Source: a virus
Taxonomy: Duplodnaviria > Caudoviricetes
Virus record (IMG/VR): IMGVR_UViG_3300034375_003668
Coordinates: 1 to 39,925 of that record
Length of the DNA: 39,925 nt
Direction: 5' to 3' (one strand)
Shown one piece after another: positions 332 through 30,700 of this stretch. Each line of letters starts with the position of its first letter. Position 1 is the stretch's first letter. A program made the translations under genes and the position numbers. The notes under the pieces are model-generated. The model searched no databases, was not told where the DNA came from, and was given only the letters and a program-made list of their open reading frames with translations.

Positions 332-398
332 ATTCATATATCTATTCATATATAGCATATGCACGTAGCATTGCTATTAGCATATGCTCGAGCATTAA
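332..398 (-). repeat. GCATATGC/TGCT..AGCA array, copy A
   Basis: attcatatatctattcatatatagcatatgcacgtagcattgctattagcatatgctcgagcattaa; aligns with the reverse complement of 4758-4825 and with 24752-24794. Confidence 0.8.
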
Positions 399-454
399 GA
401 TTCTATGAGTCAATAAGTTACGGGGCTTCCAAGTAGCATTTTAGCATTTTGCGA

Positions 455-939: not shown

Positions 940-1120
940 CACCAGCAATGAGGGTAAACGAACCCGATTAATTTTTGACGTACTGGAGTAACACTAGAGA
1001 AGGTCGGACTTGTCCGATTACTAGAAATAGTACTAGATTAGTAAAAACATCCGAAAGGATGGCGGAACCTTGAACGTCTAGAGTAACACTAGAGTAAATT
1101 AAAAATTCTTTCAAAAAATG

Positions 1121-1152
1121 TTTGCCAGTTTAAAAAATTAGTTGTATCTTTG
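1121..1152 (+). promoter_or_regulatory. Bacteroidota-type promoter P2 (TTTG-N20-TATCTTTG)
   Basis: Perfect match to the Bacteroidota housekeeping -33/-7 consensus, upstream of the early gene block. Confidence 0.8.
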
Positions 1153-1403
1153 CCCCAGCAAAAACAAAGAAAGGTCACGCAAGTGAGTACATTATCTGAC
1201 TCAGTAACTACTAGATAACTGTATACTGGAACACAAAAGAACTCATTGGGAGAGGTACGCTAGGTTGGAAACTAGGGCTGAACTCTGAGTAGTACAAAAA
1301 ATGCCCGTAATTTTTTATCGTTTTAAGGCATAGGTGTAAACGATAGCTACCTGACTGCCAGGGAGCAGACCAATGGAGATGGTCTATAATTAGCAAAGAA
1401 CTA

Positions 1404-1502
1404 GGTGGACTAGATGACTAGGTGTAATCTATTCGTTGTTGGAGGTCGGACTATCCGACTTGTCGTACCAACATACACAAGGGAGCGATGCCCTTTCCAC
1501 TA
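1404..1502 (+). ncRNA. tRNA-like cloverleaf element 1 (non-canonical)
   Basis: Acceptor-like GGTGGA/TCCACT (1404-1409/1496-1501); D-like TAGAT/ATCTA with a GG-containing loop; long arm TGTTGG/CCAACA enclosing the GTCGGACTATCCGAC hairpin; T-like arm AAGGG-AGCGATG-CCCTT. Confidence 0.4.
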
Positions 1503-1525
1503 TCTAACTAACTAAATTCAATACA

Positions 1526-1945
1526 ATGAGCAATTTCAAGTCGCAGTTAAAAACTGCAATCACATCGTCAATCCGTAACGGAGCAAAAGTAACTGAACTA
1601 ATCAAGCAATCCTTGATAGGTGAAGATGGCAAATCACTATGCGAATTGGCTACCGAGAGCTACGCTAAAGCTGGAGCTAAGGGTAACAAATTCGTAGACA
1701 CGCTAACCAGAACGATACGCAAGGTAACCAGTCACAAAGATTGGGATGGTACACCGCTAAAAATGGTGCTAGATAAAGCTACAAAGGAATACTACATTAC
1801 AAACCACAAGCCGAAAGTCAAGGAGGTTGATACGCTAGAGCAGATTATCAAGCTAGTTGAATCGGATGACTGCACCCTTACAAAGGATGAGTTCGCTATT
1901 ATCGGGGAGGCACTTGCAAAGTGTCTTACTCCTGAAATGGCGTAG
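1526..1945 (+). CDS. hypothetical early protein (139 aa)
   Basis: First ORF after P1/P2, with an A-rich start context. Confidence 0.85.
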   Translation: MSNFKSQLKTAITSSIRNGAKVTELIKQSLIGEDGKSLCELATESYAKAGAKGNKFVDTLTRTIRKVTSHKDWDGTPLKMVLDKATKEYYITNHKPKVKEVDTLEQIIKLVESDDCTLTKDEFAIIGEALAKCLTPEMA

Positions 1946-1961
1946 TCGGACTATCCGACCA

Positions 1962-2027
1962 AGTTACACTGATGAGGACAGAAGTCCGAAACAAGGAAGA
2001 AGTACAGAGTATTCCTTGTCTGTAACT
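1962..2027 (+). ncRNA. type I hammerhead ribozyme
   Basis: Stem I AGTTACA/TGTAACT (1962-1968/2021-2027); core CTGATGA (1969-1975); stem II GGAC-AGAA-GTCC; GAA; stem III ACAAGGAA/TTCCTTGT (1991-1998/2012-2019); GUC cleavage triplet, predicted cut after C2020. Confidence 0.93.
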
Positions 2028-2041
2028 AAATCTATATTACT

Positions 2042-2206
2042 ATGGAAAACGAGCAACTAGATAGGTTTGAGAACGATACTTATCAGAAGGAAAAAGAAGA
2101 ATTTATGTCCGATAAATGTTCCGATTGCATGGGGTACCTTAATAAGGATACCGATGAATGCGATAATGATTTTTGTGAGGGCAAGATACCACCAGAGTAC
2201 AAATAG
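2042..2206 (+). CDS. small acidic Cys-containing protein (54 aa)
   Basis: Not in ORF track: MENEQLDRFENDTYQKEKEEFMSDKCSDCMGYLNKDTDECDNDFCEGKIPPEYK, with CxxC...CxxxxC; a palindrome copy starts immediately after its stop. Confidence 0.7.
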   Translation: MENEQLDRFENDTYQKEKEEFMSDKCSDCMGYLNKDTDECDNDFCEGKIPPEYK

Positions 2207-2227
2207 GTCGGACAATCCGACTACAAT

Positions 2228-2300
2228 AGTACGAAAGGGGACAAGCAATTTTCGTTTTCTTCTAATGCTTGAGCTGGTTCGAGTCCAGTGCGTACTACTA
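2228..2300 (+). ncRNA. tRNA-like element 2 (acceptor stem and T-arm, no D-arm)
   Basis: AGTACG/CGTACT acceptor-like stem; T-arm GCTGG-TTCGAGT-CCAGT (2273-2289); central stem CAAGCA/TGCTTG with a U-rich loop; ends in ACTA rather than ACCA. Confidence 0.55.
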
Positions 2301-2316
2301 ATCAATACTAACTAAT

Positions 2317-2424
2317 ATGAGAAAGAAAAAGAAAGTAATAGTAGAAGCTATTGAGTTTGCCCTAATGTATTTAGGACTTGTAACAATAGCGACATTAATA
2401 ATCATTAACCTTTTAATACACTAA
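2317..2424 (+). CDS. small single-TM membrane protein (35 aa)
   Basis: Not in ORF track: MRKKKKVIVEAIEFALMYLGLVTIATLIIINLLIH; fills the gap up to the ORF at 2427. Confidence 0.55.
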   Translation: MRKKKKVIVEAIEFALMYLGLVTIATLIIINLLIH

Positions 2425-2426
2425 AG

Positions 2427-2675
2427 ATGAACAAGTACGAATTAACACAGAAGATTACTAGAGCAATTCTTATGGGACAGGACACGTACGTTTTCAGTCA
2501 AGGAGATGCGCCTAGCTTAACTTGTAAGCTACCAAGCCCACAAAGAGCAGGTACATACACGCAACAGGAAACATACGCTAGAATGCAAGCTAGTGCCATA
2601 GTGGATTTGTTTCAAGAAAAAGTAAACGGGTCGGACTATCCGACTACAACAAGTGACAGATATGACATACGATAA
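2427..2675 (+). CDS. hypothetical early protein
   Basis: ORF track; tightly packed, co-oriented gene array. Confidence 0.7.
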   Translation: MNKYELTQKITRAILMGQDTYVFSQGDAPSLTCKLPSPQRAGTYTQQETYARMQASAIVDLFQEKVNGSDYPTTTSDRYDIR

Positions 2676-2883
2676 CTACAAACTATCCAATCCACAAGAT
2701 GATGGCTGGACTTCTGATGAGGTTACGAGTTGCTGTGGAGATGAGTGTGAAAAGATAGAAGATGAGAACTGCGAACTGCAAATAGTTTGCATAGCATGTG
2801 GGTATTACTGCGATATGATAGAACCATACGAATACGAGGAAAACCAGCGTGAAAAATACGAAGAAATGAAGGAGGATTACTAA
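2662..2883 (+). CDS. acidic Zn-ribbon-like hypothetical protein
   Basis: ORF track 2653..2883; ATG at 2662 preferred; SCC...CxxC pattern. Confidence 0.75.
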   Translation: MTYDNYKLSNPQDDGWTSDEVTSCCGDECEKIEDENCELQIVCIACGYYCDMIEPYEYEENQREKYEEMKEDY

Positions 2884-2952
2884 TGACACCAATAGATTTA
2901 ATAGTTTACTTAATTTTCTACTACTACATAGTAGCATTTAAAAGGTTTATAT

Positions 2953-3552
2953 ATGAAAACAAAGCAACAATTCAAGGGACAAATTCTAACGAGGACAAAA
3001 GTTAAGAATAACATTCTTCACTTCTACAATCAGTCGGACAAATCCGACCGATATGATTGGTACGCAGAGGCTAACAAGTTTGCTCAGAAGTTATCAGATG
3101 ATTACGATATACCACACACATCATCTTGTGGCATCATATCAGCACTAAGTCCTCTTAAAACTTGGAACAATAACAAGCAATGCGCCATATCATTCCTAGA
3201 AACAGGAGATGGTAAGCACATGAAAACTTTCCAAAGCAAAGCAGAACGGATACTTCAGTGCGATGGTAACGAAGAGTGTATCAAAGATATACTGAGGGGC
3301 AACAAGATTATATCATTCTTTGAGAACATCCTACACCCACACAAAGCAGACAAGGTTACGATAGATAGACACGCTTTGTCCGTAGCACTACGCAGGTGGA
3401 TTAGAGAGGAGGATTACGCAGGTATAACCAAAGTTCAGTACAGATTTCTGGAGGACTGCTATAAGTACACAGCTAATCAGATAGGTATTAGCCCTGTACT
3501 ACTACAAAGTTCTACTTGGGAGAGGTTTAGAAAGATTAAAACTAATTACTAA
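2953..3552 (+). CDS. phage protein resembling the DUF7178 / HhH-GPD glycosylase-like family
   Basis: Motifs DWY, ISALSP..W.NN, G.KI.SF, VTIDRHA and LQ...W. Confidence 0.6.
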   Translation: MKTKQQFKGQILTRTKVKNNILHFYNQSDKSDRYDWYAEANKFAQKLSDDYDIPHTSSCGIISALSPLKTWNNNKQCAISFLETGDGKHMKTFQSKAERILQCDGNEECIKDILRGNKIISFFENILHPHKADKVTIDRHALSVALRRWIREEDYAGITKVQYRFLEDCYKYTANQIGISPVLLQSSTWERFRKIKTNY

Positions 3553-3980
3553 TAGGGTCGGACTATCCGACTATAATAAACACTAATCAAAACTATATTA
3601 CAATGAAGCATTTAAAAAGAGATGAGATGATGCAATGGATACTTGAGATGTTGACTCAAGAGAACAACGACAGAGTATTTGTTGGAACATCTGAAGATTT
3701 CAATGGCTCTGAAGGAGGTATACACTTATGTGGTGAATCTATGGATGAGTACAAGGGTGAGGTGATTTACGATTACTACTCTGAAGATTATGTGAATAGA
3801 GAATTTGGGGTACTCAATAAGTGGGAGAAAGAACTTCAAAAGAGGGGATGGTACTCTGAATGGTATGATGCTGGTACAATAAGTTTGTACACAATTTAAA
3901 ATGAGAGGGAATTGCCCTCTGTCAGTTACAACTAAAACTAATTACTAACAGTCGGACAATCCGACTATAATAAACACTAA
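3537..3980 (+). repeat. ~50-bp direct repeats (3537-3586 and 3933-3980) flanking gene 3603..3899
   Basis: TAAAACTAATTACTAA-(TAGG/CA)-GTCGGAC(T/A)ATCCGAC-TATAATAAACACTAA occurs twice. Confidence 0.9.
3603..3899 (+). CDS. hypothetical acidic early protein
   Basis: ORF track; bracketed by direct repeats. Confidence 0.8.
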   Translation: MKHLKRDEMMQWILEMLTQENNDRVFVGTSEDFNGSEGGIHLCGESMDEYKGEVIYDYYSEDYVNREFGVLNKWEKELQKRGWYSEWYDAGTISLYTI

Positions 3981-3981
3981 A

Positions 3982-4248
3982 ATGACTGGAGAACAAATTG
4001 AAAACTACATTAGGGAGGAGTTAAACTCTGAACCTAGACACAACTGCATAGCTTTAGCTGAAGCTATCAATCATGTAAGCAATGAGGTTGAATACGACTC
4101 ATTCGCACTAATGCAACTGCTACTAGAGAACAAACCAATAGACGCATTGCATACACATAGCTACGGATTCCATACAGCTAACGGAAGGTCGCTGATTGAA
4201 GCTATGCAAAACACTTATCACAAAGAAGTACAATTTTATATAGATTAA
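3982..4248 (+). CDS. hypothetical early protein
   Basis: ORF track; packed gene array. Confidence 0.8.
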   Translation: MTGEQIENYIREELNSEPRHNCIALAEAINHVSNEVEYDSFALMQLLLENKPIDALHTHSYGFHTANGRSLIEAMQNTYHKEVQFYID

Positions 4249-4259
4249 AAATAATTATT

Positions 4260-4541
4260 ATGGAAGACAACACATTAATAGCAGAATTTATGGGTATGGA
4301 ATTGGGCGATGATAAGACCGTGTATTATGATGATGCAGAAAATCTACACCCACCAACACCCGTCAATGAATTACAATTCCACACATCATGGGACTGGTTA
4401 ATGCCAGTAGTATATAAGATATTATGGCTAAAGGGTTACGAAGATGAAAGTTATGAAGACATTCACAACGGGTTAACTAACGCATTACTAACCCAAACTT
4501 ATGATGCAGTAGTAGAATTTATTAAACAATACAAACAATAA
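4260..4541 (+). CDS. hypothetical protein, paralog of 5516..5833
   Basis: Shared motifs N.LIAEFMG, ELQ.H.SWDWL.PV and Y..VVEFIKQY. Confidence 0.85.
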   Translation: MEDNTLIAEFMGMELGDDKTVYYDDAENLHPPTPVNELQFHTSWDWLMPVVYKILWLKGYEDESYEDIHNGLTNALLTQTYDAVVEFIKQYKQ

Positions 4542-4545
4542 AATA

Positions 4546-4761
4546 ATGGGAGGAATAAGAAAAACACAGAAGATAGTTTTCTACGAAGAAGATGGTAACG
4601 TAGATACAAGACACTTAAAAATACCAAAGGTAATAAATACAGACATCAGCTTTCAGTTGCAGTTTGGATTTGACTACCCACCATCACCACCAGAAAGGTT
4701 TAAACCACACAGGGAAGAGGTTTATATTAAGGGTATAAGTATCTCGGAATCAATAGGTTAA
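4546..4761 (+). CDS. hypothetical protein
   Basis: ORF track; packed gene array. Confidence 0.7.
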   Translation: MGGIRKTQKIVFYEEDGNVDTRHLKIPKVINTDISFQLQFGFDYPPSPPERFKPHREEVYIKGISISESIG

Positions 4762-4825
4762 TGCTCAAGCATATGCTACAAGCATATACTAATAGCATAT
4801 GCCATAAATATATGAATATATGAAT
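4758..4825 (+). repeat. GCATATGC/TGCT..AGCA array, copy B
   Basis: ttaatgctcaagcatatgctacaagcatatactaatagcatatgccataaatatatgaatatatgaat. Confidence 0.8.
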
Positions 4826-5017
4826 GTAATAAATTACTTAAAAGAAAAGGCGAAGTCCTACGTACATCAAGGTAATGTGTGTGAGATAGCCGAGATAATA
4901 GAGGGGTATAACTCCGAACTAATAAGAGAAAACAAAATGCTTAGGAGTAAAATCTCAAGGATTAGAAAAGCATTAGGAGATGAATTAAATAAGTCGGATA
5001 ATCCGACCAGTAAATAA
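4820..5017 (+). CDS. hypothetical coiled-coil protein
   Basis: ORF track. Confidence 0.65.
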   Translation: MNVINYLKEKAKSYVHQGNVCEIAEIIEGYNSELIRENKMLRSKISRIRKALGDELNKSDNPTSK

Positions 5018-5035
5018 CTAACTAAATTAAATATT

Positions 5036-5284
5036 ATGACTAGAGAAAAATGTCAAGAGGTTTACGACAAGATTGCGGATGCGTTTCACAATCAATCTGG
5101 AGGAGATTACAACGACACCATGTACTATCAATTGCTTGGCGCATCAGAGGAGATGCAAGAGGCAGATATTGATGGTGATTGGGAGTACACATACAAAACT
5201 CTATCAGAGTGTTGGAAGTATGTAGAACATTGCAAAAAGATTGATGACCTACAACAGAATATGCCTAAAGAAATATATTGTTAA
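5036..5284 (+). CDS. hypothetical protein
   Basis: ORF track. Confidence 0.8.
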   Translation: MTREKCQEVYDKIADAFHNQSGGDYNDTMYYQLLGASEEMQEADIDGDWEYTYKTLSECWKYVEHCKKIDDLQQNMPKEIYC

Positions 5285-5529
5285 CTATGATTAAACACAG
5301 AATACCAAACGACAAATGGATGGAGTTTATTAGCGAGATAGCTACACAACTCACCGAACTAAACTTTCACGAAGATACCTTTGAAGTAATAGGTGAGAAG
5401 GGTATACATTTGCGTTTTACAGAAGATGCGCAAGATTTCTTCAATGAAAGATATGACGAAGTAGAAACACTACTAGAGAACACACTAGATATAACTAACG
5501 ATAAACCAGAGTATTATGAAGGACAATAA
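5278..5529 (+). CDS. hypothetical acidic protein (start may be the ATG at 5287)
   Basis: ORF track. Confidence 0.75.
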   Translation: MLTMIKHRIPNDKWMEFISEIATQLTELNFHEDTFEVIGEKGIHLRFTEDAQDFFNERYDEVETLLENTLDITNDKPEYYEGQ

Positions 5530-5833
5530 ACTGATAGCAGAATTTATGGGATGCACAAACCCATTTAATGAGATACATGACGCAACCTTATACAAGGTTG
5601 AGCAAGGTACATTTGAACTTGACGAACTGCAATACCACGAATCTTGGGATTGGCTTATACCTGTAATAAAAAAGATAGATAGCTACGCTTGTGAGGAAAT
5701 GGACTTTTCTGACTATGATGATTACAGAAATAAATATGTATTTATACACAACATTTCGTTGCATAATGATATAAGAGAAGTTTACAATCAAGTAGTAGAA
5801 TTTATTAAACAATACAATAAAGATGAAAGTTAA
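5516..5833 (+). CDS. hypothetical protein, paralog of 4260..4541
   Basis: Shared N- and C-terminal motifs, with nucleotide identity at both ends. Confidence 0.85.
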   Translation: MKDNKLIAEFMGCTNPFNEIHDATLYKVEQGTFELDELQYHESWDWLIPVIKKIDSYACEEMDFSDYDDYRNKYVFIHNISLHNDIREVYNQVVEFIKQYNKDES

Positions 5834-6197
5834 ATTTGAATGGACAACTAGGGAGGCGTATCTCCTAGACAAACTAGAAAGGAATACGATAGGTAAATTA
5901 AAAGAAGCAACAACAAAAGTTAAAACTAAACTGCAAAACATTATGGACAAACTAATGGCAAACAAAATTACACCAGAACAATATGATGAGTTATGGGAAA
6001 CAATACAAGACAGACTAGAGGACCTGTACGACAACAACCCCGATAGCTACGACCTAGAGGACTACGACTTTAGATTAGAGGGTAATGAGATTTTTGTAGA
6101 TGATATAGTGATGGGTTACGACCATAACTACAAGGCAGATGTAATACTAAAGCTATTGGTAGAAGAAGGTGTAATCAAAGTAAAAGATAAAAAATAA
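5823..6197 (+). CDS. hypothetical protein
   Basis: ORF track. Confidence 0.8.
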   Translation: MKVKFEWTTREAYLLDKLERNTIGKLKEATTKVKTKLQNIMDKLMANKITPEQYDELWETIQDRLEDLYDNNPDSYDLEDYDFRLEGNEIFVDDIVMGYDHNYKADVILKLLVEEGVIKVKDKK

Positions 6198-6213
6198 ATT
6201 AAAACTAAATAAA

Positions 6214-6363
6214 ATGTTAAACACTAGAAAAATTTTCTTAATACTTGCAATGGCAAGTTTAGTATTATCAGTATCAATGTGGTTCTTTGGAGACAGACAA
6301 TCAGCTATCTACGTTGGTTTGTGGGTTCCAACTATACTACTATTAGGTCAGTATAAGTTATGA
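6214..6363 (+). CDS. small two-TM membrane protein (49 aa)
   Basis: Not in ORF track: MLNTRKIFLILAMASLVLSVSMWFFGDRQSAIYVGLWVPTILLLGQYKL; ATGA overlap with the next gene. Confidence 0.7.
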   Translation: MLNTRKIFLILAMASLVLSVSMWFFGDRQSAIYVGLWVPTILLLGQYKL

Positions 6364-6641
6364 TTACTAAAAAGTATCTAAAGAAACTTAACAAGGTTAG
6401 GCTTCTTTTTGCAGACTACTGTCCTAGAATATACTACTCAAAAAACTATCATGCAAACATTGAGGTTGCATTAGCTGAGTGTGATGAAGAAACTCTTGAT
6501 GACTTCATGGCTTTTGAAAAGTATTGCAAGACAAAAGGATTAGGCAATCTAATATCTCAAACTTTCCAGCATGATATTGGCGGTCTAATGAGTAGCGATA
6601 AACATTTTGTACCCAGAGTTGCTGGGTTTAGGGAAGACTAA
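6360..6641 (+). CDS. hypothetical protein
   Basis: ORF track. Confidence 0.75.
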   Translation: MITKKYLKKLNKVRLLFADYCPRIYYSKNYHANIEVALAECDEETLDDFMAFEKYCKTKGLGNLISQTFQHDIGGLMSSDKHFVPRVAGFRED

Positions 6642-6865
6642 CACACGGAGGTGCGTAAAATTGTGCGTGTAAGCACCTAAAAACGTTCTTATGAGTTGAG
6701 CATTGAGCAACTCTACTTAGCGGTAGAGTGGTTGTCTTTATCCCCTTCTGTATTTTTTAATTATTATTAAGTGGATTTGGTCGTCTGCTATACAGAGGGG
6801 GGTTGGATAGCTTTAATTGTTAATAACTTTTGAACACAGGGCATGCTATTATTGAAGTATATTTA

Positions 6866-6873
6866 TATATTTG
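6866..6873 (+). promoter_or_regulatory. -7 element TATATTTG upstream of the recombination/replication block
   Basis: TAnnTTTG 33 nt before the ERF start; no well-spaced -33 element. Confidence 0.55.
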
Positions 6874-6906
6874 TAAAGCAAAATTAAACAAGTTAAATTT
6901 TATTTT

Positions 6907-7488
6907 ATGGAAGCAAACAAAAAATTCATTGGGAAACTTATGCAAGTTCAACAAGAACTTAAGGCTCCTAAAAATCAGTACAACAAATTTGGTAGGTACT
7001 CTTACAGGAATCAAGAGGATATTCTTGAAGCTGTTAAGCCACTATTAAAATCAAACGGACTAGCAATGACTATCATTGATAATGTCAAAGAGGTTTGTGG
7101 TATGCCATTTGTTGAGGCAACAGTCACAATCACAGATGGTGCCAGTGATATTACTGCAACAGCACAAGCTGGTATTGATGTAAACAGAAAGGGTATGGAT
7201 ATTGCTCAGTCATTCGGAGCTTCATCTTCTTACGCTAGAAAGTACGCACTCAATGGCTTATTCTTAATTGATGATACTAAAGATGCTGATGCTACAAACA
7301 CTCACGGAAACTCTAACAGCAGACCTAAGTCGGATAGTCCGACTGCTAAAGTAAAGATGACTCAAGAAGTTATGACAGCTATGATGGGTGCAATCAAAGA
7401 GGGCAAGGTTGATGTTGTTAAAAGTAGAATGTCATCCTACACAATGACAAAAGCACAGAGAGATAAATTAAATAAAGCGTTATCATGA
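6907..7488 (+). CDS. erf: ERF-family single-strand annealing protein
   Basis: LKAPKNQYNKFGRYSYR..EDILEAVKPLL and the ERF signature AQSFGASSSYARKYALNGLFLIDDTKDAD. Confidence 0.92.
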   Translation: MEANKKFIGKLMQVQQELKAPKNQYNKFGRYSYRNQEDILEAVKPLLKSNGLAMTIIDNVKEVCGMPFVEATVTITDGASDITATAQAGIDVNRKGMDIAQSFGASSSYARKYALNGLFLIDDTKDADATNTHGNSNSRPKSDSPTAKVKMTQEVMTAMMGAIKEGKVDVVKSRMSSYTMTKAQRDKLNKALS

Positions 7489-7745
7489 AATATATAAGTG
7501 AATTACCAAAGATACTTCGTTATCACGGAGTTAGGAAGACAGCAAAAGCTAAACAGATAGGCATTGCTCACCAAACATTTAGTCAAAAGATACTTGAACC
7601 AAACAGGTTTACTGTACAAGAAATTATTGACCTATGTCAAAGCACTCCAGAAATAAATCTTAAACCTCAAGAGATGTTTGAGTTTATAGTTGATGAGATT
7701 AACACATTAAAAAAGCTAGAGAAAAGTGGAGTTAGTAAAGTTTAA
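7485..7745 (+). CDS. putative Cro/XRE-like helix-turn-helix protein
   Basis: KTAKAKQIGIAHQTFSQKI..P.RFTVQEI pattern. Confidence 0.6.
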   Translation: MKYISELPKILRYHGVRKTAKAKQIGIAHQTFSQKILEPNRFTVQEIIDLCQSTPEINLKPQEMFEFIVDEINTLKKLEKSGVSKV

Positions 7746-8469
7746 GACAGACGAAGAGTATTATGCTGATAGAGAGTATGTTACAAACTCTCAACTAGGA
7801 TACCTCAACAGGTCACCTCAACATCTTCAGATGTATTATGATGGAAATGGAGACAGCTCCTCAGCTTTAGAGGTTGGTAAGTTAGTTCATCAATACATAC
7901 TAGAGCCAGAAAAGATTTCTGAAAACGACATAGTTTGTTTTGAAGGAAGGAAGTATGGCAAGAAGTGGGATGAGTTTAAATCTAAAAACTCAGACAAGAC
8001 AATACTGTCTATGAGAGATTTTGAATCTATCAAGGGTGTGGTTGGCAGCTTCTTTAAGAACGATGATGCTGTTGAACTTATTGCAGATGGCTTGAAAGAG
8101 GTAACTAACTGCTGGGTAGATGGTGACACCTTCGTGAAATGCAAGGGTAAGGCTGACGTTTTAAATCCTAATGGGATAATAGATATTAAAACAACAGCCA
8201 ACATTGACCCTCACTCATTCAGGAACTCATGCTACAAGTATGGTTACAACAGACAGGCTGCATTCTACTGCGATGGTTTTGGTGTTGAGAACTTTACATT
8301 TATTTGTGTAGAGAAAGAAGCCCCATACAGAGTGGCTGTTTACGAGTGTTCTCCAGAGTTCATTGAATCAGGTAGGCAAGAGTATAAAAGACTGCTACAA
8401 ATGTACTTTGAATACTTCGTTGAGCAATCTAATGATGTAGAAGACTACTACATACAGGGCGTTCTGTAA
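7726..8469 (+). CDS. RecE/exonuclease VIII-like PD-(D/E)XK exonuclease (DUF3799-like)
   Basis: EYYA..YVTNSQL, G.LVH..ILEP, CKGKADVL...IIDIKT, YGYNRQAAFY, F.FICVEKEAPY; located near ERF. Confidence 0.88.
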   Translation: MELVKFKTDEEYYADREYVTNSQLGYLNRSPQHLQMYYDGNGDSSSALEVGKLVHQYILEPEKISENDIVCFEGRKYGKKWDEFKSKNSDKTILSMRDFESIKGVVGSFFKNDDAVELIADGLKEVTNCWVDGDTFVKCKGKADVLNPNGIIDIKTTANIDPHSFRNSCYKYGYNRQAAFYCDGFGVENFTFICVEKEAPYRVAVYECSPEFIESGRQEYKRLLQMYFEYFVEQSNDVEDYYIQGVL

Positions 8470-8550
8470 TGTTAACCGCATTAATCATTGGTATTTTTAT
8501 AGGGATGTTTATAAGACAATCCTGGGTAGATAATTTTAAATGTAAACAAG

Positions 8551-9042
8551 ATGAGAAATAGAGATGAGCACGACACTTACGTCAATAATATAGATAACCT
8601 TAACTTTATATTAGATGAGGTATCTAAGACTTTAGGTGTTCCAAAGGAGCATATGGTTTCAAGGAAGAGAAAGTCTTTTATAGTTGATGCCAGGTGTATA
8701 TACACAGCTATAGCTAGGGAGTCAACAAACGAGAGCCTCGAGTCTATTGGAAGCATGATTAATAGAGACCATAGTATGTCTATACATTATTTAAAGAAGC
8801 ATGATGCTTATGTCTCTACAGACTTAAACTATAGACAGAAGTATAATGACTGCTGTTATGTTGGAAAGTCTTTAGCTGAACCAGAGTTCGGTCACCGCTC
8901 CATAGTTGACAGGCTTATGATTAGAAACTCTATTCTTTCTGAGAAGTTTAGATACGAAAAGAGCGAGAAAGAAAAAGCTCAGCATCAAGTTCTTAGAATG
9001 AAACAGTTTTTAAAGAGTAGTAAAAATTACTTTGAATGCTAG
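8551..9042 (+). CDS. protein with a DnaA C-terminal (domain IV) HTH and a coiled coil
   Basis: SRKRK..IVDAR...SLESIGSMINRDHSMSIH resembles DnaA domain IV (SL..IG..F..RDHTTV.H). Confidence 0.75.
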   Translation: MRNRDEHDTYVNNIDNLNFILDEVSKTLGVPKEHMVSRKRKSFIVDARCIYTAIARESTNESLESIGSMINRDHSMSIHYLKKHDAYVSTDLNYRQKYNDCCYVGKSLAEPEFGHRSIVDRLMIRNSILSEKFRYEKSEKEKAQHQVLRMKQFLKSSKNYFEC

Positions 9043-9368
9043 AGAACAAGAAGAAATACTTCATCAATCTCAAGCATCATGGTAAAGCGATAGTCCACCT
9101 AAGAAGAAGTAAAAAGATAACAAGGACAGACTTAGATGTTGTTCTATGGTGTTATCACTACGGAGTCTTCAGTGTTCAGAAGTTTAACAAAGAGTTTGAC
9201 AAGGGAATAAATAGAAGCAGACAACACATATCGCAGCTAATAGAAAAAAGATTAATAAAAAGAAAGCAAGGGTACAAGTTAAACAATGGTGCGTTCCCTT
9301 ACTATCTTACACCAAAGGGCTTAGTAGTTGCCCGTGAATACTACAGAGTTTTAAAAGGATTACAGTAA
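9036..9368 (+). CDS. winged-helix (MarR-like) DNA-binding protein
   Basis: ISQLIEKRLIKR...YYLTPKG wing motif. Confidence 0.65.
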   Translation: MLENKKKYFINLKHHGKAIVHLRRSKKITRTDLDVVLWCYHYGVFSVQKFNKEFDKGINRSRQHISQLIEKRLIKRKQGYKLNNGAFPYYLTPKGLVVAREYYRVLKGLQ

Positions 9369-9391
9369 TCAATTAATTAATTATTTTTATT

Positions 9392-9673
9392 ATGAGTTCA
9401 ATCATTAATGTGTCTATTAACTTAGACAAAATCGACAAATCAAAAATCATTGCAGGTAAGAAAGGTAAGTATCTAAACCTTACCGTGGGTGCAAACAGAA
9501 ATGGCGAAGACCAGTTTGGTAACACTCACTATGTTGCAATCTCTCAGACAAAAGAAGAGAGAGAAGCTAAATCTCCAAAGGTTTACTTAGGTAACGGGAA
9601 GGAGTTTGTTTTTAGTGATGGTCCTGCTCCAGCTCCAGCAAACGCTGGTAATGATGGAGACCTACCATTCTAA
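9392..9673 (+). CDS. ssb: single-stranded DNA-binding protein (Bacteroidota-phage type)
   Basis: SINLDKIDK...GKYLNL...DQFGN...YLGNGK, with an acidic C-terminal DGDLPF tail. Confidence 0.75.
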   Translation: MSSIINVSINLDKIDKSKIIAGKKGKYLNLTVGANRNGEDQFGNTHYVAISQTKEEREAKSPKVYLGNGKEFVFSDGPAPAPANAGNDGDLPF

Positions 9674-9697
9674 GTTTTTCATAGTTTTTAGTTAGTT

Positions 9698-9732
9698 AGA
9701 GGGTGGTGTTGTAATGACACCCCCTCTTTTTT
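9698..9732 (+). terminator. intrinsic terminator after ssb
   Basis: AGAGGG(T)GGTGTTG-TAA-TGACACCCCCTCT hairpin followed by a T-run. Confidence 0.7.
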
Positions 9733-9745
9733 AAAATCAAATTAC

Positions 9746-10420
9746 ATGAGTTTAGTACAACCTTATTTTGCTCACGACATAAACGCAGTCAATGACTTCA
9801 AGATTCAAACAATGATGTATGAATTTGGAGTGTCTGGATACGGTATGTTCTGGGTTATATGTGAAGCTCTAGCCTCTCAGAAGAGTTGTTCTCTACCACT
9901 AAAAGAATCATATGTAAGAGCTCTTTCATCCAAGGCTATGGTTGATGTTGAGCAAATGAATCACTTCATCAAATCTTGCTGCGAGGAGTATGAGCTTTTT
10001 GTTACTGATGGTGAATCCATATGGTCTGAAAGTTTATCCAAGAGGATGGAGAAGAGTAGAAGCAATGTTGACAGAGCTAAGAGAGCGGCAAAGGCTAGAT
10101 GGTCTAAGCCTAAATCAAAACCTAAGTCGGACAGTCCGACTAAAAAATCAACCAATAAAATAAAAGCTGTATCTATTGAAGATAGGAAGCTTACGTTTGG
10201 AGAATCACTTAGTCCTTTTGTAGAAGAGTTCGGTAGAGATATGGTTAAAAACTTCTATGAATACTGGACTGAGCATGGAGACAATGACACTAAGATGAGA
10301 TTTGAAAAGCAAAAGACTTGGAGCACTAAGTCCAGGCTTAACAGATGGAGGTCTAACAATTTTGGCGGAAACAAAAAGGAATCAGTAAGCACTAATAATA
10401 TATTTAACTTTGGCAACTAG
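9746..10420 (+). CDS. replication initiator / replisome organizer (DUF4373/Lin1244-like N-terminus)
   Basis: YFAHD.NA.ND.KI..M..EFG.SGYG.FW...E.L; KRAAKARW; C-terminal FYEYWTE...MRFEKQKTW; immediately upstream of the helicase. Confidence 0.8.
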   Translation: MSLVQPYFAHDINAVNDFKIQTMMYEFGVSGYGMFWVICEALASQKSCSLPLKESYVRALSSKAMVDVEQMNHFIKSCCEEYELFVTDGESIWSESLSKRMEKSRSNVDRAKRAAKARWSKPKSKPKSDSPTKKSTNKIKAVSIEDRKLTFGESLSPFVEEFGRDMVKNFYEYWTEHGDNDTKMRFEKQKTWSTKSRLNRWRSNNFGGNKKESVSTNNIFNFGN

Positions 10421-24751: not shown

Positions 24752-24794
24752 ATATATTCATGGCATATGCTAATAGCACATGCTCAAGCATTAA
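24752..24794 (-). repeat. GCATATGC/TGCT..AGCA array, copy C
   Basis: atatattcatggcatatgctaatagcacatgctcaagcattaa. Confidence 0.8.
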
Positions 24795-27700
24795 TAGTTA
24801 AACCAAACCCCAGTGCTACTTCCTAAATAAAGCTCTCTTCGAACCTGTTTAGGTAATAAAATTTTAGGGCTATTAATCATTTTCTTTATTTCAGAGTTAG
24901 GAACCCCTAACATTCTAGCGGAGTCAATTAAGTCTTTCACATAAGAAACCTCTTCGTTTAGATTGTTTATCGAGCTTCTATACTGCTCTGCACTTCTGTC
25001 TTTGTAGGTCAAGCTTCTTTCTCCTGAAATTTTTCCAGATAAGTTTTCTAGCTCTCTTCTAATTTTAAACCTTGGGTCTGATTTAGATTCTCTAACACCA
25101 GTAAGCATGCTTTTCATGGTCTTAATTTTATCCTCAGACTTTGCAACTTTATCTATTTGAGTAACAAATCCTGGCAACAAAACATCCATCTCTGATAATA
25201 GTTTAGAAACCTTAACGTCATCAGTTAAAGCAGGGTCAGAAAGTATGTCTCTGATTTGTAGGGTAGCATCTGTACCCATACTTAATCCAAGATAAGAGCC
25301 TATATAGTTTCCTATACTTTTGCTAATCGCAATAGCTAAAGACTCGTCACCATAATCTGGGTCAGATAATAAATCTATAGATGTAAGAACCTCCTCTAAG
25401 TCAGAGTGTGGGTCAACAGCACCAACGTTGGTGTATTCAAATGTTCCGTCAGGATTTATCTTTGTTACATTCAGAGAGCCAAACTCATCATACTCTGGCA
25501 AGAACTTTCTACAAGCTAATATTTTTCTCTTCTCTTCTTCATCCTCTCCTCCAAACAATCCTAAGAAAGCGTTAGAAGCAAACCCTCCAATAAGCTTAAA
25601 CGCAGCAGTTTTTAAACCTAAGTAGCCAATAGTTGAAGCCATCCTTTTAGCTCCCTGAACTCTAAGGTCTGGGTCCATCATATCACTTTTAGCAATAAGG
25701 ATACTATTCTTCATTGTTCTTATAGACTCGTATTTAAACGACAAGAAGTCTCCTAAGAAAGGAACTCTTCTAATATACTCAATACCCTTTCCAACTCTAG
25801 AGTATGTAGGATAAGTATTCTTTACTCTTTCAGCAACGAAGTCATCTATCTCAGCTTCAGTCATGCCCTTCTTTCTTAAGGCAGACTCGTATCTGTTACG
25901 CTCCATTGCAAATGCGTAAATCTTAAACATGTCATCCTCAGCCTGATACAAGTCTTGAGCCTTTTTTCTGCTCATATCTATACCTTTCTTCCCCTTACTC
26001 ATCATCATCTTCAACCTGTTGTTTTCATTTGACTGGTATCCATCCATATTTTTAGAAAAGTAGTAGTCGAAGTCACCATTCTGAGATAAATCTATAATAT
26101 CATTAACAGAAACGTTTTGTCTAATAACACCAAGAGCTGTAAGCTTTTGTATTTGCTGCTCAACCTCTTGTCTATCCTGGTCTGTAAGAACTTTTTTCGC
26201 ACCAAGAAGCTTAGCCATTTTAGAGTCTAAAATGTTAAGGTCATACATGACGGTTCTTATAGAGTTTCCGCCTGCTTTTGGGCTTGTAAATCCTATATGA
26301 CCATTCATCATTATGAATCCTAAGTTACCAATAACATTTCTCGCATGAGTCATTGGAGATAAAGTAGTTTTACTCTCTCTAGTCCAGCTCACAAAATCAA
26401 ATACTTTCTGTAAAAGAACTCCTCTTTGTTGAGGACTTGTAACATCTTGTATTTCAGCAAGAACCACAGGGTCTATATACATTCCATTCAAGGGGGCTAA
26501 AGCACTATTAGATTCAGCAGCTATTCTAACAGCATCCCCTGGTCTATTAGGGTCGTTGGGTTGATATATAAAATCGTTCATCCCAACTTCTTTTAATTTT
26601 TTAAGAAGTTTTTGTTGCTCAATTAGTGAAAACACCTTCATAACAGTGTTAGCGTAATTGTACATTGGGTCATTATATTCTCCCATCAAAGCTCTAAGTT
26701 CTGGAGATATTTCTTTTCTTTTCTTTAATACATTAGAATCCTTTGTTGATAAAGCACCAGCAACACCTAAGAAAGAAACCTCTTCTTTATTTAATATGCT
26801 ATCAACAACATTAAGCAATTCATTTTCAAAAGATTCAGTTAACTTTCCATCTTTATTGTTTAAGATGTCGACAATTTCAGACCTTTGTGATTCGTAATCT
26901 TCTTTGGTTATTTGACCATTTTGATATTGCTGATTTACTCTAGTCAACTCTCCTTCGTAAAAGTCCATCAACCTTTCATATATTTGATTAGACTGCTCTC
27001 TTCTAAGGTAATTTATTGCGTTGTTAAGTATAGCAGACTTGTTAGGGTCTTTAGCAAAAGCCTCTCTAATTTCTGGACCAGTCTTACCGCTAAACGCAGG
27101 GTCGTCATATATTGCATAAGAACGTGTTAAATAAGAACCAAGGTTGTCTTCAATCTTAAGCTTAATTTCATCTTGAGTAAATCCAGACTCTATAAGCTGT
27201 GATGACAACCCGTCTATTTGATTTCTCATAGACTCAACAGTCTCAGACACTTCTACACCATACATATTTGTTAGTTCACCAAATGTAATCTCACCTCTTA
27301 ATGCCTTCTCAATATCTTTTATTGTTTCAGCATAATTAGGATTATCCATTGTCATAGAGCCCTCAACAATACCCTTTAAGTATTTGTTTAATTTTCTTTG
27401 AGTAAACTGAACATCAGCAATCATAGACCTTACATTCTGACCCTTCTCCTCTATAAGAGTATAAACCTCTTTTCTTAACTGACCTTGAGGCGTAAATAAA
27501 TTTGCAAAATAATTTCCTGCATTTTTTAGTTTATCAGTAATACCCTGCCAAATAGAAACATCTTCATTAGAACTAACAAGCTTATTTTGTCTTGGAGCTT
27601 CTTGCTCTTTAACAAAGTTATTTTTAATGCTATCCTTCATCAAGGCATCAAAGGCTGCACTAATATCGTTCAAGTCGTAACCTTTATTCGAAAAGGCTTC

Positions 27701-30700
27701 TAGTATTTGACCCTTAGTAAATCCTTGCTCAACTAAATTAGACACTACCTTTTTAATATCAGATTGAGTAGGTTTAGAAAACTTAGCCGTGCTGTAGTCT
27801 TTAGAGTATACTGACTTAGCCTGGTTGGGGTCGAATATAGCAATGTTCTTGCGACCTCCTTCTCCTACATACATAGAATCATATCCAAGTGATTTTATTT
27901 TATCACCAAAAGGCTCTAAGTATCCCCAGTTGTTACGTGTGTTATTCGATATAATTATAGCAATATTAGACCTACTGTTTTTGCTTGGGTCGATACCCTG
28001 ACTTATAGCAAACAACTCAACATCCATCTTACTTAAAGAATTGATAAGTCTACTTAAGTGACTTGGATTCTCATAATCAAAAGGATTTTGCACGCTTATA
28101 TATGCAGGCATTACGTTGGGTAAAACAGAGTCCCCTCTAACCTTTTCTGCTGCTGATGGCTCTGTATATTTATTAGCGAACTCTGGGTCAGGACTAAAAA
28201 ACATAGCACCAACAAGCTGTGATGTTCTACCCATATCAAAGTTGTCAAACACACGAGTTGTTCCATGATAGTAAACCTGTGGAGCACCCTCTTCATTTAC
28301 TGCTTTAGAATCTTTAAACCAATCATCAAAACCTTTTCTGTCCTCTTTAAGTGCTGTTATAATAGACTTATCTATAGGTATTATTTCGTAAGCATCTTTT
28401 AATTTTTCTGAGTGTTTTAATTCTGGTTTTGTAGTAACGATAGCATCATAACCCTGCTCCTGCAATTCTTTGATTTGTGAAGCCGAATATATTTTAGGTT
28501 TTTTTTGATAAAAAGGTTTCTTTGGATTTATTTTTGCTGAAAACTTTCTACCTCCATACCCCTTAAAGGCAGTTGAAGAAGGTGTGAAAAATACTAAATT
28601 ACCAACCTTGTCGACTCCGCTTGGCATTTTTTCACCAGTCTCAAAATCTAAGTCCTTCATTATATTGCTACCATCATTCGTGTTTCTATAAAATGTGGTA
28701 ATAACATTTTCTGTTTCTGAAGCAAAACTAAATCTAGGTTTTATTTTTTCCTGCGCTTGCTTTACGCCAAGCTCCATTACCTTGCTGATTATTTGTTCAC
28801 TGCTTGAAAATAAATCTGTCTCAAACTCTCTAGATGTTTCAGCAAGAATATATTGTGCGTGAGAAACAACTATAGAATTTTTTATGTCTCCAAAATCAAT
28901 AACATCTTCATTTAGTTGTTCTTGAGTCATATTCATTCTATCCTGAACAATCCTTGCTTCTTGCTCTCCAAATAAATTTTGGTAAGCTTCAAATGTTTTC
29001 TTGTATTTTTCTTCCTTTGTTTTTGTGTCATCCGCAACATACTCTCTTAGGGCTGCATCAAATATAGAAACCATTTCCATGTTCCCACCTTTCGAAACAC
29101 TAGCAAGCCCTTGTGCTACATGTTGCTGTTCGTGAACAAAGGTGCTTTTTATTTCTTCAAAAAGATTATTATAAAAAACCTCTTTCCTTTCTTCAACAGT
29201 TGCAGCCTCAGCCTCCATCATCATAAGCTCTGCCTCTGCGTATGCTTTGTTTTCAGGTACAATTGTTAATCTATCAAAAGTATTTTCTAAAAAAGGATGA
29301 GTTTTTTTAATTTTATCTTGAATATCTAATATTTCTGCTACTATTTCAAAATATTTATTAACATCTTCTCTTGCATCACTATCCTTTACAGAATCTCTTT
29401 GTTTAAGCAATGCTCTAACTTCAGCGACTTCTTGTGAAAAAATTGCTGAAAGGTACATAGCCTTGTATTTATCCGAAGATACTAAAGGATTTACGCTTAT
29501 GTCATTTGTTATCTTATTTAAACCTATTCCATCAGCAAAGTCATCAATCATGCTGACTAACTCGCTTCTATCTTTATCACTAATCTCTAAGCTTTCATTA
29601 TCTAATAAAGCAGCAGCGTCAACTATATGTCTTGGCATTATTGTTTTTACAGCTCCTTTACTAGTGCCGCTACCCTCAAAAAGATTAAAATCTACATTGA
29701 TGTTTTTTATTTCTGGATAAAACTCTGCCAAAACATTACCATCAAATAATGATGAAATTTTATCAGAAAACTCTAATAGACTTTCGTTTCCTCTTGCAAA
29801 AAATAATTCAAAGCTATCAATAATATCTGATTTTACTTTTGGATTAAAATTTAAATCTGCATCAGAAACCTCAAATCTCCAGAACCCATCAGGACCTTGA
29901 GACCACCCAGTAGCTTTTGCTATTAATTTAGCATCCATTCCTTCCTGAACATAATTCTTAGCCTCTCTTAGAGACTCTAGTATTCTAGATTGAACAACAG
30001 CTTCGTTGTTAGGGTCTAATCCGTTATCGTATACAAAAGAAAATAAAGCTTTTAGTTTAGGGTCTGAATCTATCTCTTTTAACTCTTCTGCTGTTATGTC
30101 AGAAATAGTTTCTCCAGATGTTAATCTTCCAGCAACAAAGTCTGTGTACTGCCCCAAGGTTAGGTTCACAGGAATACCCTTGTTTTTGATTATATCAAAT
30201 AACTTCTTTAACCAAGCCTGGAATCCTTCTCTCTTATTCTGCTCCAACAAAGCACCCTTCTCACCAATAGCCTGAGCGAGAGCCTCTTCTAATATCCCCT
30301 CTTCGCTAAGGTTACTATAGTTAGGGCTGTTTCTAACATCCTGCTCATACTTAGTTCCCTTAACCAATTCTAAACCTTTCTTGTATAGTTCTGGCTCGTA
30401 CTTCTTAGCATAAGAATTGAATATGTGAGCCATCTCGTGGATAGGAGTATCCATGGTAATATTATCTGCTACTAAATAAACCTTTCCACCATAAGCAAAA
30501 CCTTTTGATTTTCCTGCGTTAGTGCCAGGAAGTATGGACTCCGCTTGTTTGCTATTAATTATAGCGATTGGAGCATTAGGGAAAGCGTTTTGTAATCTAT
30601 CTACTAAGTGCTGTAATCCTTTTCCTTTTAAAGACGTTTTAGACAAAGCAGACATTTCTATTTGCTCTTCAATCTTTTCAATGTCAGTTTTATTCTCCTC

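What the first reader, a model, noticed from the sequence alone, without database searches (positions are those of the whole stretch)
1962..2027. Intact type I hammerhead ribozyme between two early genes
Seen: all conserved core nucleotides (CUGAUGA, GAAA, GUC) with three fully paired stems (7, 4 and 8 bp) on the sense strand. It begins 2 nt after a palindrome copy, and the predicted cut after C2020 leaves a 21-nt leader for the unannotated 54-aa ORF at 2042. Established: hammerheads occur in some phage intergenic regions, but their roles are largely unknown.
Basis: partly seen in the sequence, partly recalled or inferred. Interest (0 to 1): 0.85.

Follow-up and report, generated by a model that had tools for sequence, protein, structure and literature searches.

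The report
Hammerhead ribozyme punctuating phage early genes
A marine bacterial virus carries a complete self-cutting RNA motif (a hammerhead ribozyme) between its first two early genes, one of roughly a thousand similar viral copies that likely cut a long message into gene-sized pieces; the arrangement has been known since 2011, so this is a clean new example.

Summary
Confirmed. Window 1962-2027 is a type I hammerhead with a perfect core. It is the only descriptor hit in the window; 1 of 500 shuffles gave one as good. Rfam misses it. It belongs to a large phage family: about 1,100 IMG/VR stretches match a core pattern, and 131 of 143 sampled cores fold as type I. Members lie just behind a stop codon and cut 16-36 nt before the next ATG (90 of 116; 16% by chance), up to 8 per genome. 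One correction: stem I is most likely 6 bp, with U2027 pairing to loop-II A1983. These two positions covary across the family (A:U 81, U:A 18, C:G 2 of 116), and a close strain breaks the seventh pair while keeping both bases. In close strains the ribozyme stays behind gene 1 while the next gene changes. Likely role: cutting the early transcript into units with defined ends. Cleavage itself is untested. Clustered phage hammerheads were described by Perreault 2011, and this scan noted them on other genomes (25 notes). Not found in my searches: the family's size, its fixed spacing, and the reversed A1.7:U contact of most members.

The parts
1962..2027 (+). type I hammerhead ribozyme (functional unit most likely 1963-2027)
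1963..1968 (+). stem I, 5' strand (positions 2.6-2.1); A1962 = 2.7
1969..1975 (+). catalytic core C3-A9 (CUGAUGA); G5 = 1971, G8 = 1974
1976..1987 (+). stem II (4 bp) with tetraloop 1980-1983; A1983 is the last loop base, predicted partner of U2027
1988..1990 (+). core G12 A13 A14
1991..2019 (+). stem III (8 bp, 1991-1998/2012-2019) with a 13-nt loop; would end the upstream product as a hairpin
2020..2021 (+). predicted cleavage site, after C17 of GUC
   Evidence: chemistry from established hammerhead knowledge
2021..2027 (+). stem I 3' strand (1.1-1.6) and U1.7 (2027); start of the 21-nt leader
2021..2041 (+). predicted 5'-OH leader of the downstream product, AU-rich, no Shine-Dalgarno
1526..1945 (+). 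first early gene (139 aa, no Pfam or PHROG hit); its TAG stop (1943-1945) lies 23 nt before C3
2042..2206 (+). 54-aa ORF with a Cys cluster; few homologues; exchangeable between strains
1945..1959 (.). palindrome copy (6-bp arms, 3-nt spacer), one of 11 in 1003-10140; folds on its own and does not compete with the ribozyme
1122..1152 (+). match to the Bacteroidota-type promoter consensus (consensus recalled); likely start of the early transcript
   Evidence: the loose motif also matches 18 other places in the window

Best explanation
This is a type I hammerhead ribozyme motif with a complete core between the first and second early genes of a marine phage, and it likely cuts the long early message at 2020/2021 into pieces with defined ends. 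Inferred steps follow. Host RNA polymerase transcribes the early operon from about 1160. Once 2021-2027 is made, stems I-III close and U2027 docks on loop-II A1983, allowing cleavage at cellular Mg2+. The weak 6-bp stem I then falls apart, so the cut is not undone. The upstream piece (139-aa gene) ends in the stem III hairpin and a 2',3'-cyclic phosphate. The downstream piece starts with a 5'-OH and a leader of about 21 nt, roughly a ribosome-binding length, whatever lies upstream. The effect would be an enzyme-free processing site that sets the stability and translation of adjacent early genes separately and tolerates gene swapping, much as the synthetic RiboJ insulator does.
For: Shown: perfect core and three stems, above chance. 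Family of about 1,100 viral stretches; 131 of 143 cores fold as type I with many compensatory pair types, against 23 of 117 cores in cellular genomes. A core-free scan of 195 kb found 38 perfect cores and none with 1-2 core changes. Cut 16-36 nt before an ATG in 90 of 116 (random 15.6%); upstream stop within 14 nt of C3 in 93 of 102. Up to 8 copies per genome, co-oriented and mostly clustered. A close strain keeps the core, U1.7 and loop A, and has a different gene 22 nt behind the cut (L378/L379). Contigs show the ribozyme with other upstream and other downstream neighbours. No + strand terminator-like site between 700 and 6243. Literature: tandem prophage hammerheads cut native ~2-kb transcripts in vitro and in E. 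coli, and a halovirus transcript 5' end maps within 3 nt of a hammerhead cut 13 nt before an early gene (PMC3088659).
Against: No cleavage was observed here. Four contigs from RNA libraries run across 2020/2021, so uncut RNA or DNA is present; these libraries hold 22-67 kb contigs and probably DNA, and contigs cannot show ends. The cut does not free the start codon in folding predictions, so there is no unmasking effect. A1962 can pair with U2027, which in an engineered hammerhead halved turnover (PMC11875169). The cultured relative Maribacter phage Panino has no hammerhead core match, and distant homologues of the 54-aa gene have none in front, so the element is dispensable. Whether a 5'-OH end stabilises or destabilises RNA in the host was not tested.
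Confidence: 0.62

Rival explanations
1. The cut is a timer for decay: like glmS, it exposes one or both products to host nucleases and so limits or shuts off early genes.
For: glmS cleavage is followed by degradation (PMC6765202 passage). Copies sit at the head of early regions, whose expression should be short-lived.
Against: A leader of constant, ribosome-sized length is kept behind the cut in both SD-using and SD-free phages (90 of 116; SD-like in 43 of 92). The upstream piece ends in a hairpin. In E. coli circuits cleaved RiboJ messages are modelled as the more stable form (PMC7536230 passage).
Confidence: 0.18
2. A translation-coupled switch: ribosomes ending on the upstream gene melt the 5' strand and core, so cleavage reports how the upstream gene is translated.
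For: In 93 of 102 members with an upstream ORF the stop lies within 14 nt of C3, often inside the ribozyme (19 use the core UGA, 12 end right before C3).
Against: In this window the stop is 23 nt away with a hairpin between. Tight spacing is normal in phage genomes and no random control was run for it. No alternative fold was found.
Confidence: 0.1
3. Pairs of ribozymes excise gene units for circularisation or splicing, or the motif is a selfish mobile element.
For: Tandem copies flank single genes in many relatives. The motif is shared by phages that lack the window's helicase and mostly its ERF gene, which suggests spread between lineages.
Against: This 64%-complete record has one copy. Stem I is short and weak (median duplex -4.1 kcal/mol), which disfavours re-ligation. 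Copies in one genome differ in sequence but not in structure. Perreault et al. looked for circular and spliced products and found none.
Confidence: 0.07
4. A chance or dead look-alike with no function.
For: 12 of 500 shuffles give a loose hit. No direct sign of cleavage. 4 of 18 consensus hammerheads tested by Perreault et al. were inactive.
Against: Orthologous copy with structure-neutral changes. Same stem I at the syntenic place in G024 with a different stem II. Family-wide covariation and no decayed cores.
Confidence: 0.03

Closest known systems
Clustered hammerhead ribozymes flanking single genes in prophages and phages (Perreault et al. 2011, PMC3088659; passages, sections 7, 11, 17 and part 1 of Dataset S1 seen)
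   Same: Consensus core, intergenic sense-strand position beside small unconserved genes, tandem copies in relatives, proposed processing of polycistronic RNA; the halovirus HHphage sits 13 nt before an early gene.
   Different: A uniform type I family (6-bp stem I, 4-bp stem II) in free aquatic phages with a fixed cut-to-ATG distance. No multi-base pseudoknot; instead one or two single-base cross contacts. The paper's alignment pages could not be read, so some members may already be among its environmental sequences.
Minimal fast hammerhead with the U1.7 : loop-II last A contact (O'Rourke et al., not read; as described in PMC11875169, passages seen; conserved reverse Hoogsteen pair noted in PMC6155905, passages seen)
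   Same: The window copy has U at 1.7 and A as fourth base of a tetraloop after a 6-bp stem I; 12 of 14 tetraloop members do too.
   Different: Natural, cis-acting. 80 of 102 pentaloop members carry the reversed A1.7:U pair plus an almost invariant A2.7 and U first in the loop (101 of 102), a combination not found in my searches.
Rfam hammerhead models (release 15)
   Same: Same catalytic class.
   Different: No Rfam family scores this sequence, even at E up to 10.
RiboJ-type ribozyme insulators (PMC7536230, passages seen; Lou et al. 2012 not read) and T7 early RNase III sites (recalled)
   Same: Works like them: a cut shortly before a start codon gives the downstream gene a fixed 5' end.
   Different: Natural and enzyme-free; type I topology leaves almost the whole ribozyme on the upstream product; no added hairpin behind the cut. 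Not a member of either.

Membership tests
Hammerhead ribozyme | Core C3 U4 G5 A6 N7 G8 A9, G12 A13 A14, A15.1:U16.1, H17 | tested here: met
   1969-1975, 1988-1991, 2019, 2020; criteria as in PMC3088659 methods
Hammerhead ribozyme | Three helices around the core, core-adjacent pairs intact | tested here: met
   7(6)/4/8 bp; minimum-energy fold
Hammerhead ribozyme | Helices supported by compensatory change in relatives | tested here: met
   All variable stem pairs are the top 12 mutual-information pairs in 116 members; the descriptor required pairing, so the swap control (stem I of 6 bp in 8% of random pairings) is the fair comparison
Hammerhead ribozyme | Site-specific self-cleavage giving 2',3'-cyclic phosphate and 5'-OH | not testable with these tools
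   Only contigs were available; four RNA-library contigs cross the site
Type I hammerhead | Stem I open-ended, stems II and III closed by loops | tested here: met
   no type II or III reading
Fast natural hammerheads | Tertiary contact between stem I periphery and loop II (U1.7 with last loop-II A) | tested here: met
   By covariation only: Fisher p 3e-17; within stem-I strata 33 of 36 against a mean of 24.4, p 1.3e-4; kept in the orthologue. Geometry not tested.
Pseudoknot hammerheads (Perreault 2011) | Several Watson-Crick pairs between loop II and stem I flank | tested here: not met
   Only 1.7/last loop base and 2.7/first loop base covary; 1.8-1.10 do not
Rfam hammerhead families | Score at or above a gathering threshold | tested here: not met
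Clustered phage hammerheads flanking genes | Several co-oriented copies between small genes | tested here: inconclusive
   One copy in this 64%-complete record; 2-8 core matches in 12 of 22 other records

The most novel reading that the evidence does not exclude
Aquatic phages of several host phyla use one standardised hammerhead module as a natural insulator: it gives each swappable early gene a fixed, ribosome-sized 5' leader independent of its upstream neighbour. Most members reach full speed through an undescribed two-point clamp (A1.7 with the last and A2.7 with the first U of a five-base loop II), the mirror of the known U1.7:A contact that this copy uses.
Probability: 0.3. Interest if true: 0.62.

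Novelty: new member of a known kind. Interest (0 to 1): 0.36.

Why it matters
What self-cleaving ribozymes do in bacteria and phages is an open question (PMC6765202, PMC6155905). This copy adds little alone. Its family gives over a hundred natural variants with a fixed geometry (stop codon, ribozyme, cut about 26 nt before ATG), which narrows the options to mRNA end-setting and is easy to test. One member lies between two genes of a cultured Flavobacterium (L361). The covariation gives natural support for the single tertiary pair proposed for minimal fast hammerheads and points to a reversed form. The family is invisible to Rfam here and would justify a new model.

Tried and rejected
Rfam at two thresholds: no hammerhead. 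Palindrome as a switch that sequesters the core: its 5' arm is complementary to 1984-1989, but that pairing has probability 0.03 or less; rejected. Palindrome as part of the family: the palindrome-plus-core pattern gave 5 viral loci, 1 the near-identical record and 4 GC-rich phages without a hammerhead; the palindrome alone is arrayed only in that record among 13 loci. Cut unmasks the start codon: no change in predicted accessibility. Link to the 54-aa gene: of 11 metagenome loci, 3 near-identical ones have the same layout, 2 have another ORF inserted behind the ribozyme, 4 distant homologues have no ribozyme, 1 is cut at the contig start and 1 looks unrelated. A2.7 as a by-product of stop codons: a stop triplet covers 2.8-2.6 in only 26 of 116. 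Longer stems instead of a cross pair: possible for 10 of 116 members only. Cultured phages: blastn with two ribozymes gave short hits only; the two followed up were no hammerheads (one checked by pattern and sequence, one inside a coding gene); Panino has no core match. RNA evidence: 8 of 11 listed runs hold part of the region, none as raw reads, so no ends could be mapped. Protein-led searches of the viral collection returned only the near-identical record. Pfam and PHROG gave nothing for the two flanking genes. Literature searches listed no paper on this family or the reversed pair; the library lacks most subscription papers. The search of Perreault's supplements found no match, but only 300 of 1,018 pages of Dataset S1 are held and the alignment starts on page 651.

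Full report
Observation. A descriptor for all three hammerhead types finds one hit in the whole window, type I with core at 1969 and stems of 7, 4 and 8 bp. Of 500 dinucleotide shuffles, 12 give any loose hit and 1 gives one as well paired. The hammerhead is the minimum-energy and centroid structure and stays so with about 110-120 nt of flank on each side, at 37 and 15 C; with about 220-260 nt of flank stem I falls to 0.3-0.65. Rfam does not score it.

Setting. The window is a 39.9-kb viral record, 64% complete. Small + strand genes at the left lead to ERF, a PDDEXK nuclease and a DnaB-like helicase; structural genes lie on the other strand. The host is likely a flavobacterium. The best cultured hit of the DUF7178 gene is Maribacter phage Panino, which has the same early layout; 94 of 100 helicase hits are Flavobacterium or Riemerella phages; 0 of 16 early leaders carry a Shine-Dalgarno motif, as expected for Bacteroidota (PMC6847099, abstract). 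The runs labelled by organism that hold the region are marine. A promoter-like site at 1122-1152 (recalled consensus) and no + strand terminator-like site before 6243 suggest one long early transcript through the ribozyme.

Family. An exact pattern of core plus stem II gave 24 viral loci with 25 matches; 23 fold as type I, 1 as type III, 1 is cut by the locus end. In 22 of those records a looser core pattern found 1-8 matches each, always on one strand per record, against 1 control match in all. A broader pattern that fixes neither loop II nor position 1.7 matched an estimated 1,100 stored stretches; 132 loci were returned. Of 143 distinct cores, 131 fold as type I, 119 of them with a 6-bp stem I. 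I dropped 1 with a truncated flank and merged duplicates, leaving 116. The near-same pattern in cellular genomes gave 23 type I folds among 117 cores, so the high pass rate is viral, not an artefact of the descriptor. A scan that asked for the stems and allowed up to three core changes found 38 perfect cores, none with one or two changes, one with three, and none in reversed sequence (195 kb); these regions were chosen for holding at least one perfect core, so this is support, not proof, of selection on catalysis.

Position. The cut lies 16-36 nt before an ATG that opens 25 codons or more in 90 of 116 members (median 26; random places on the same strand 15.6%). An upstream ORF ends within 14 nt of C3 in 93 of the 102 members that have one (no random control for this second count). 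Of 92 leaders, 43 carry an SD-like motif, so the family spans hosts with both initiation styles. Carrier phages are diverse: 2 of 16 share the window's ERF gene and 0 of 16 its helicase. In the two with ERF the ribozymes lie about 4-5 kb upstream of it, as here, and G024 has the same stem I with a different stem II.

Tertiary contact. The top non-stem signal is position 1.7 with the last base of loop II: A:U 81, U:A 18, A:G 11, A:A 3, C:G 2, U:G 1 of 116 (Fisher p 3e-17; pentaloops alone 1e-7). It survives permutation within identical stem-I sequences (33 of 36 complementary, mean 24.4, p 1.3e-4; with loop length also fixed, 8 of 9, p 0.04), and neighbouring positions 1.8-1.10 show nothing like it. 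In the cellular set 22 of 23 are complementary, but 10 of those rows come from one genome bin. No tree-based test was run. The window copy has the U:A form with a tetraloop, the contact described for minimal fast hammerheads (PMC11875169 passages; PMC6155905 passages). Most members have the reverse, A1.7:U, in a pentaloop that starts with U opposite an A at 2.7 (101 of 102). The window copy lacks this second contact. In a close strain (L378, L379; upstream gene 97% identical) position 2.7 is U, the loop is GGAA and the last stem II pair is a wobble, while the core, stem III, U1.7 and the loop A are unchanged. Stem I is therefore best read as 6 bp.

What it is tied to. In that strain a different short ORF starts 22 nt behind the cut and the 54-aa gene follows it; four distant homologues of the 54-aa gene have no ribozyme. 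Contigs of public runs show gene 1 plus palindrome continuing without the ribozyme, the ribozyme behind another upstream sequence, and its 3' half before another gene; each rests on one low-depth contig. Cassettes between palindrome copies are gained and lost. The palindrome neither belongs to the family nor competes with the fold.

Mechanism. Shown: structure, conservation, position, exchangeable neighbours. From established chemistry: a cut after C17 leaves a cyclic phosphate and a 5'-OH. Inferred: cleavage during or soon after transcription; release of the weak stem I (median -4.1 kcal/mol); an upstream message capped by stem III; a downstream message with a fixed short leader. I put cleavage at about 0.9 and end-setting of the early message as its purpose at about 0.62. 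Rivals are decay timing (0.18), a translation-coupled switch (0.10), circles or selfish spread (0.07) and no function (0.03). Against my reading: the cut does not open the start codon; four RNA-library contigs cross the site, though DNA is probably in those libraries; Panino does without it. Nuclease preferences for 5'-OH ends are recalled and were not tested for this host.

Comparison with what is known. Perreault et al. 2011 reported multiple hammerheads flanking single genes in prophages, showed that three such clusters cut their transcripts, proposed processing into gene-length mRNAs and found no circles. Reviews still call the role open (PMC6765202; PMC6155905). A 2026 paper links type I hammerheads in 5' UTRs of fungal RNA viruses to translation initiation (PMC13725137, abstract only), a eukaryotic parallel. 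The engineered counterpart is RiboJ (PMC7536230 passages). Earlier notes of this scan report similar arrays in other phages; none concerns this genome and none matched words for the tertiary pair. My five literature searches listed no description of this family or of the reversed contact, but Perreault's alignment pages were unreadable and may hold members.

Verdict. A real, well-supported type I hammerhead; a new member of a known kind. Interest 0.36, earned by the size and regularity of the family and by the covarying tertiary pair rather than by this copy.

Noticed in passing
window 1003-10140: Eleven copies of a 15-16 bp palindrome, all in the early and replication region, none in the remaining 30 kb apart from one weak match. 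Five lie inside ORFs (2630, 3033, 4993, 7329, 10126), two of them in linkers with the same PKSDSPT peptide, which suggests a DNA-binding site. Arrayed only in this lineage.
   Followed up: partly
window 3564-3959 and 2228-2315: Strain contigs lack the 394-nt cassette with the 98-aa gene between two palindrome repeats, or carry 376 extra bases behind the 2207 copy: the repeats act as gene-cassette boundaries (also L378, L381).
   Followed up: partly
L233 (G024) early region: One hammerhead at the head of the operon, then a different GC-rich hairpin right behind nearly every stop codon, in the places where this window has its palindrome.
   Followed up: no
G018 (L057, L058): Eight or more hammerheads in about 5 kb, with both the A1.7:U and the U1.7:A form in one genome; some have long stem III insertions.
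   Followed up: partly
L361:1549 (Flavobacterium sp. A45); L364:1501 (Mucilaginibacter pedocola): Family members in genomes of cultured Bacteroidota: one between two lipoprotein-like genes, 20 nt before the ATG; one about 290 nt before a 309-aa transposase-like ORF (likeness judged by eye).
   Followed up: partly
L366:1501-1760 and L371 (two Daejeonella genomes): Two hammerhead-like cores about 200-225 nt apart with a conserved non-coding stretch between them, in both genomes; could release a small RNA.
   Followed up: no
L078, L129, L130: Cores followed directly by a leader and ATG without a type I stem III: probable type III or II hammerheads in the same intergenic position; L012 also reads as type III.
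   Followed up: no
window 4260-4541 and 5516-5833: Two paralogous small early genes (93 and 105 aa) sharing an N-terminal LIAEFMG and a WDWL motif; contigs join across them.
   Followed up: no
window 24791-35248 (-): A 3,485-aa virion-type polyprotein, probably an injected protein.
   Followed up: no
window 350-410 and 4760-4830: The ATAT/GCATAT-rich inverted repeats near 350-410 resemble, in reverse, those near 4780-4820; 440-720 is a low-complexity AT then CA-rich tract that may be the genome end or origin (by eye).
   Followed up: no
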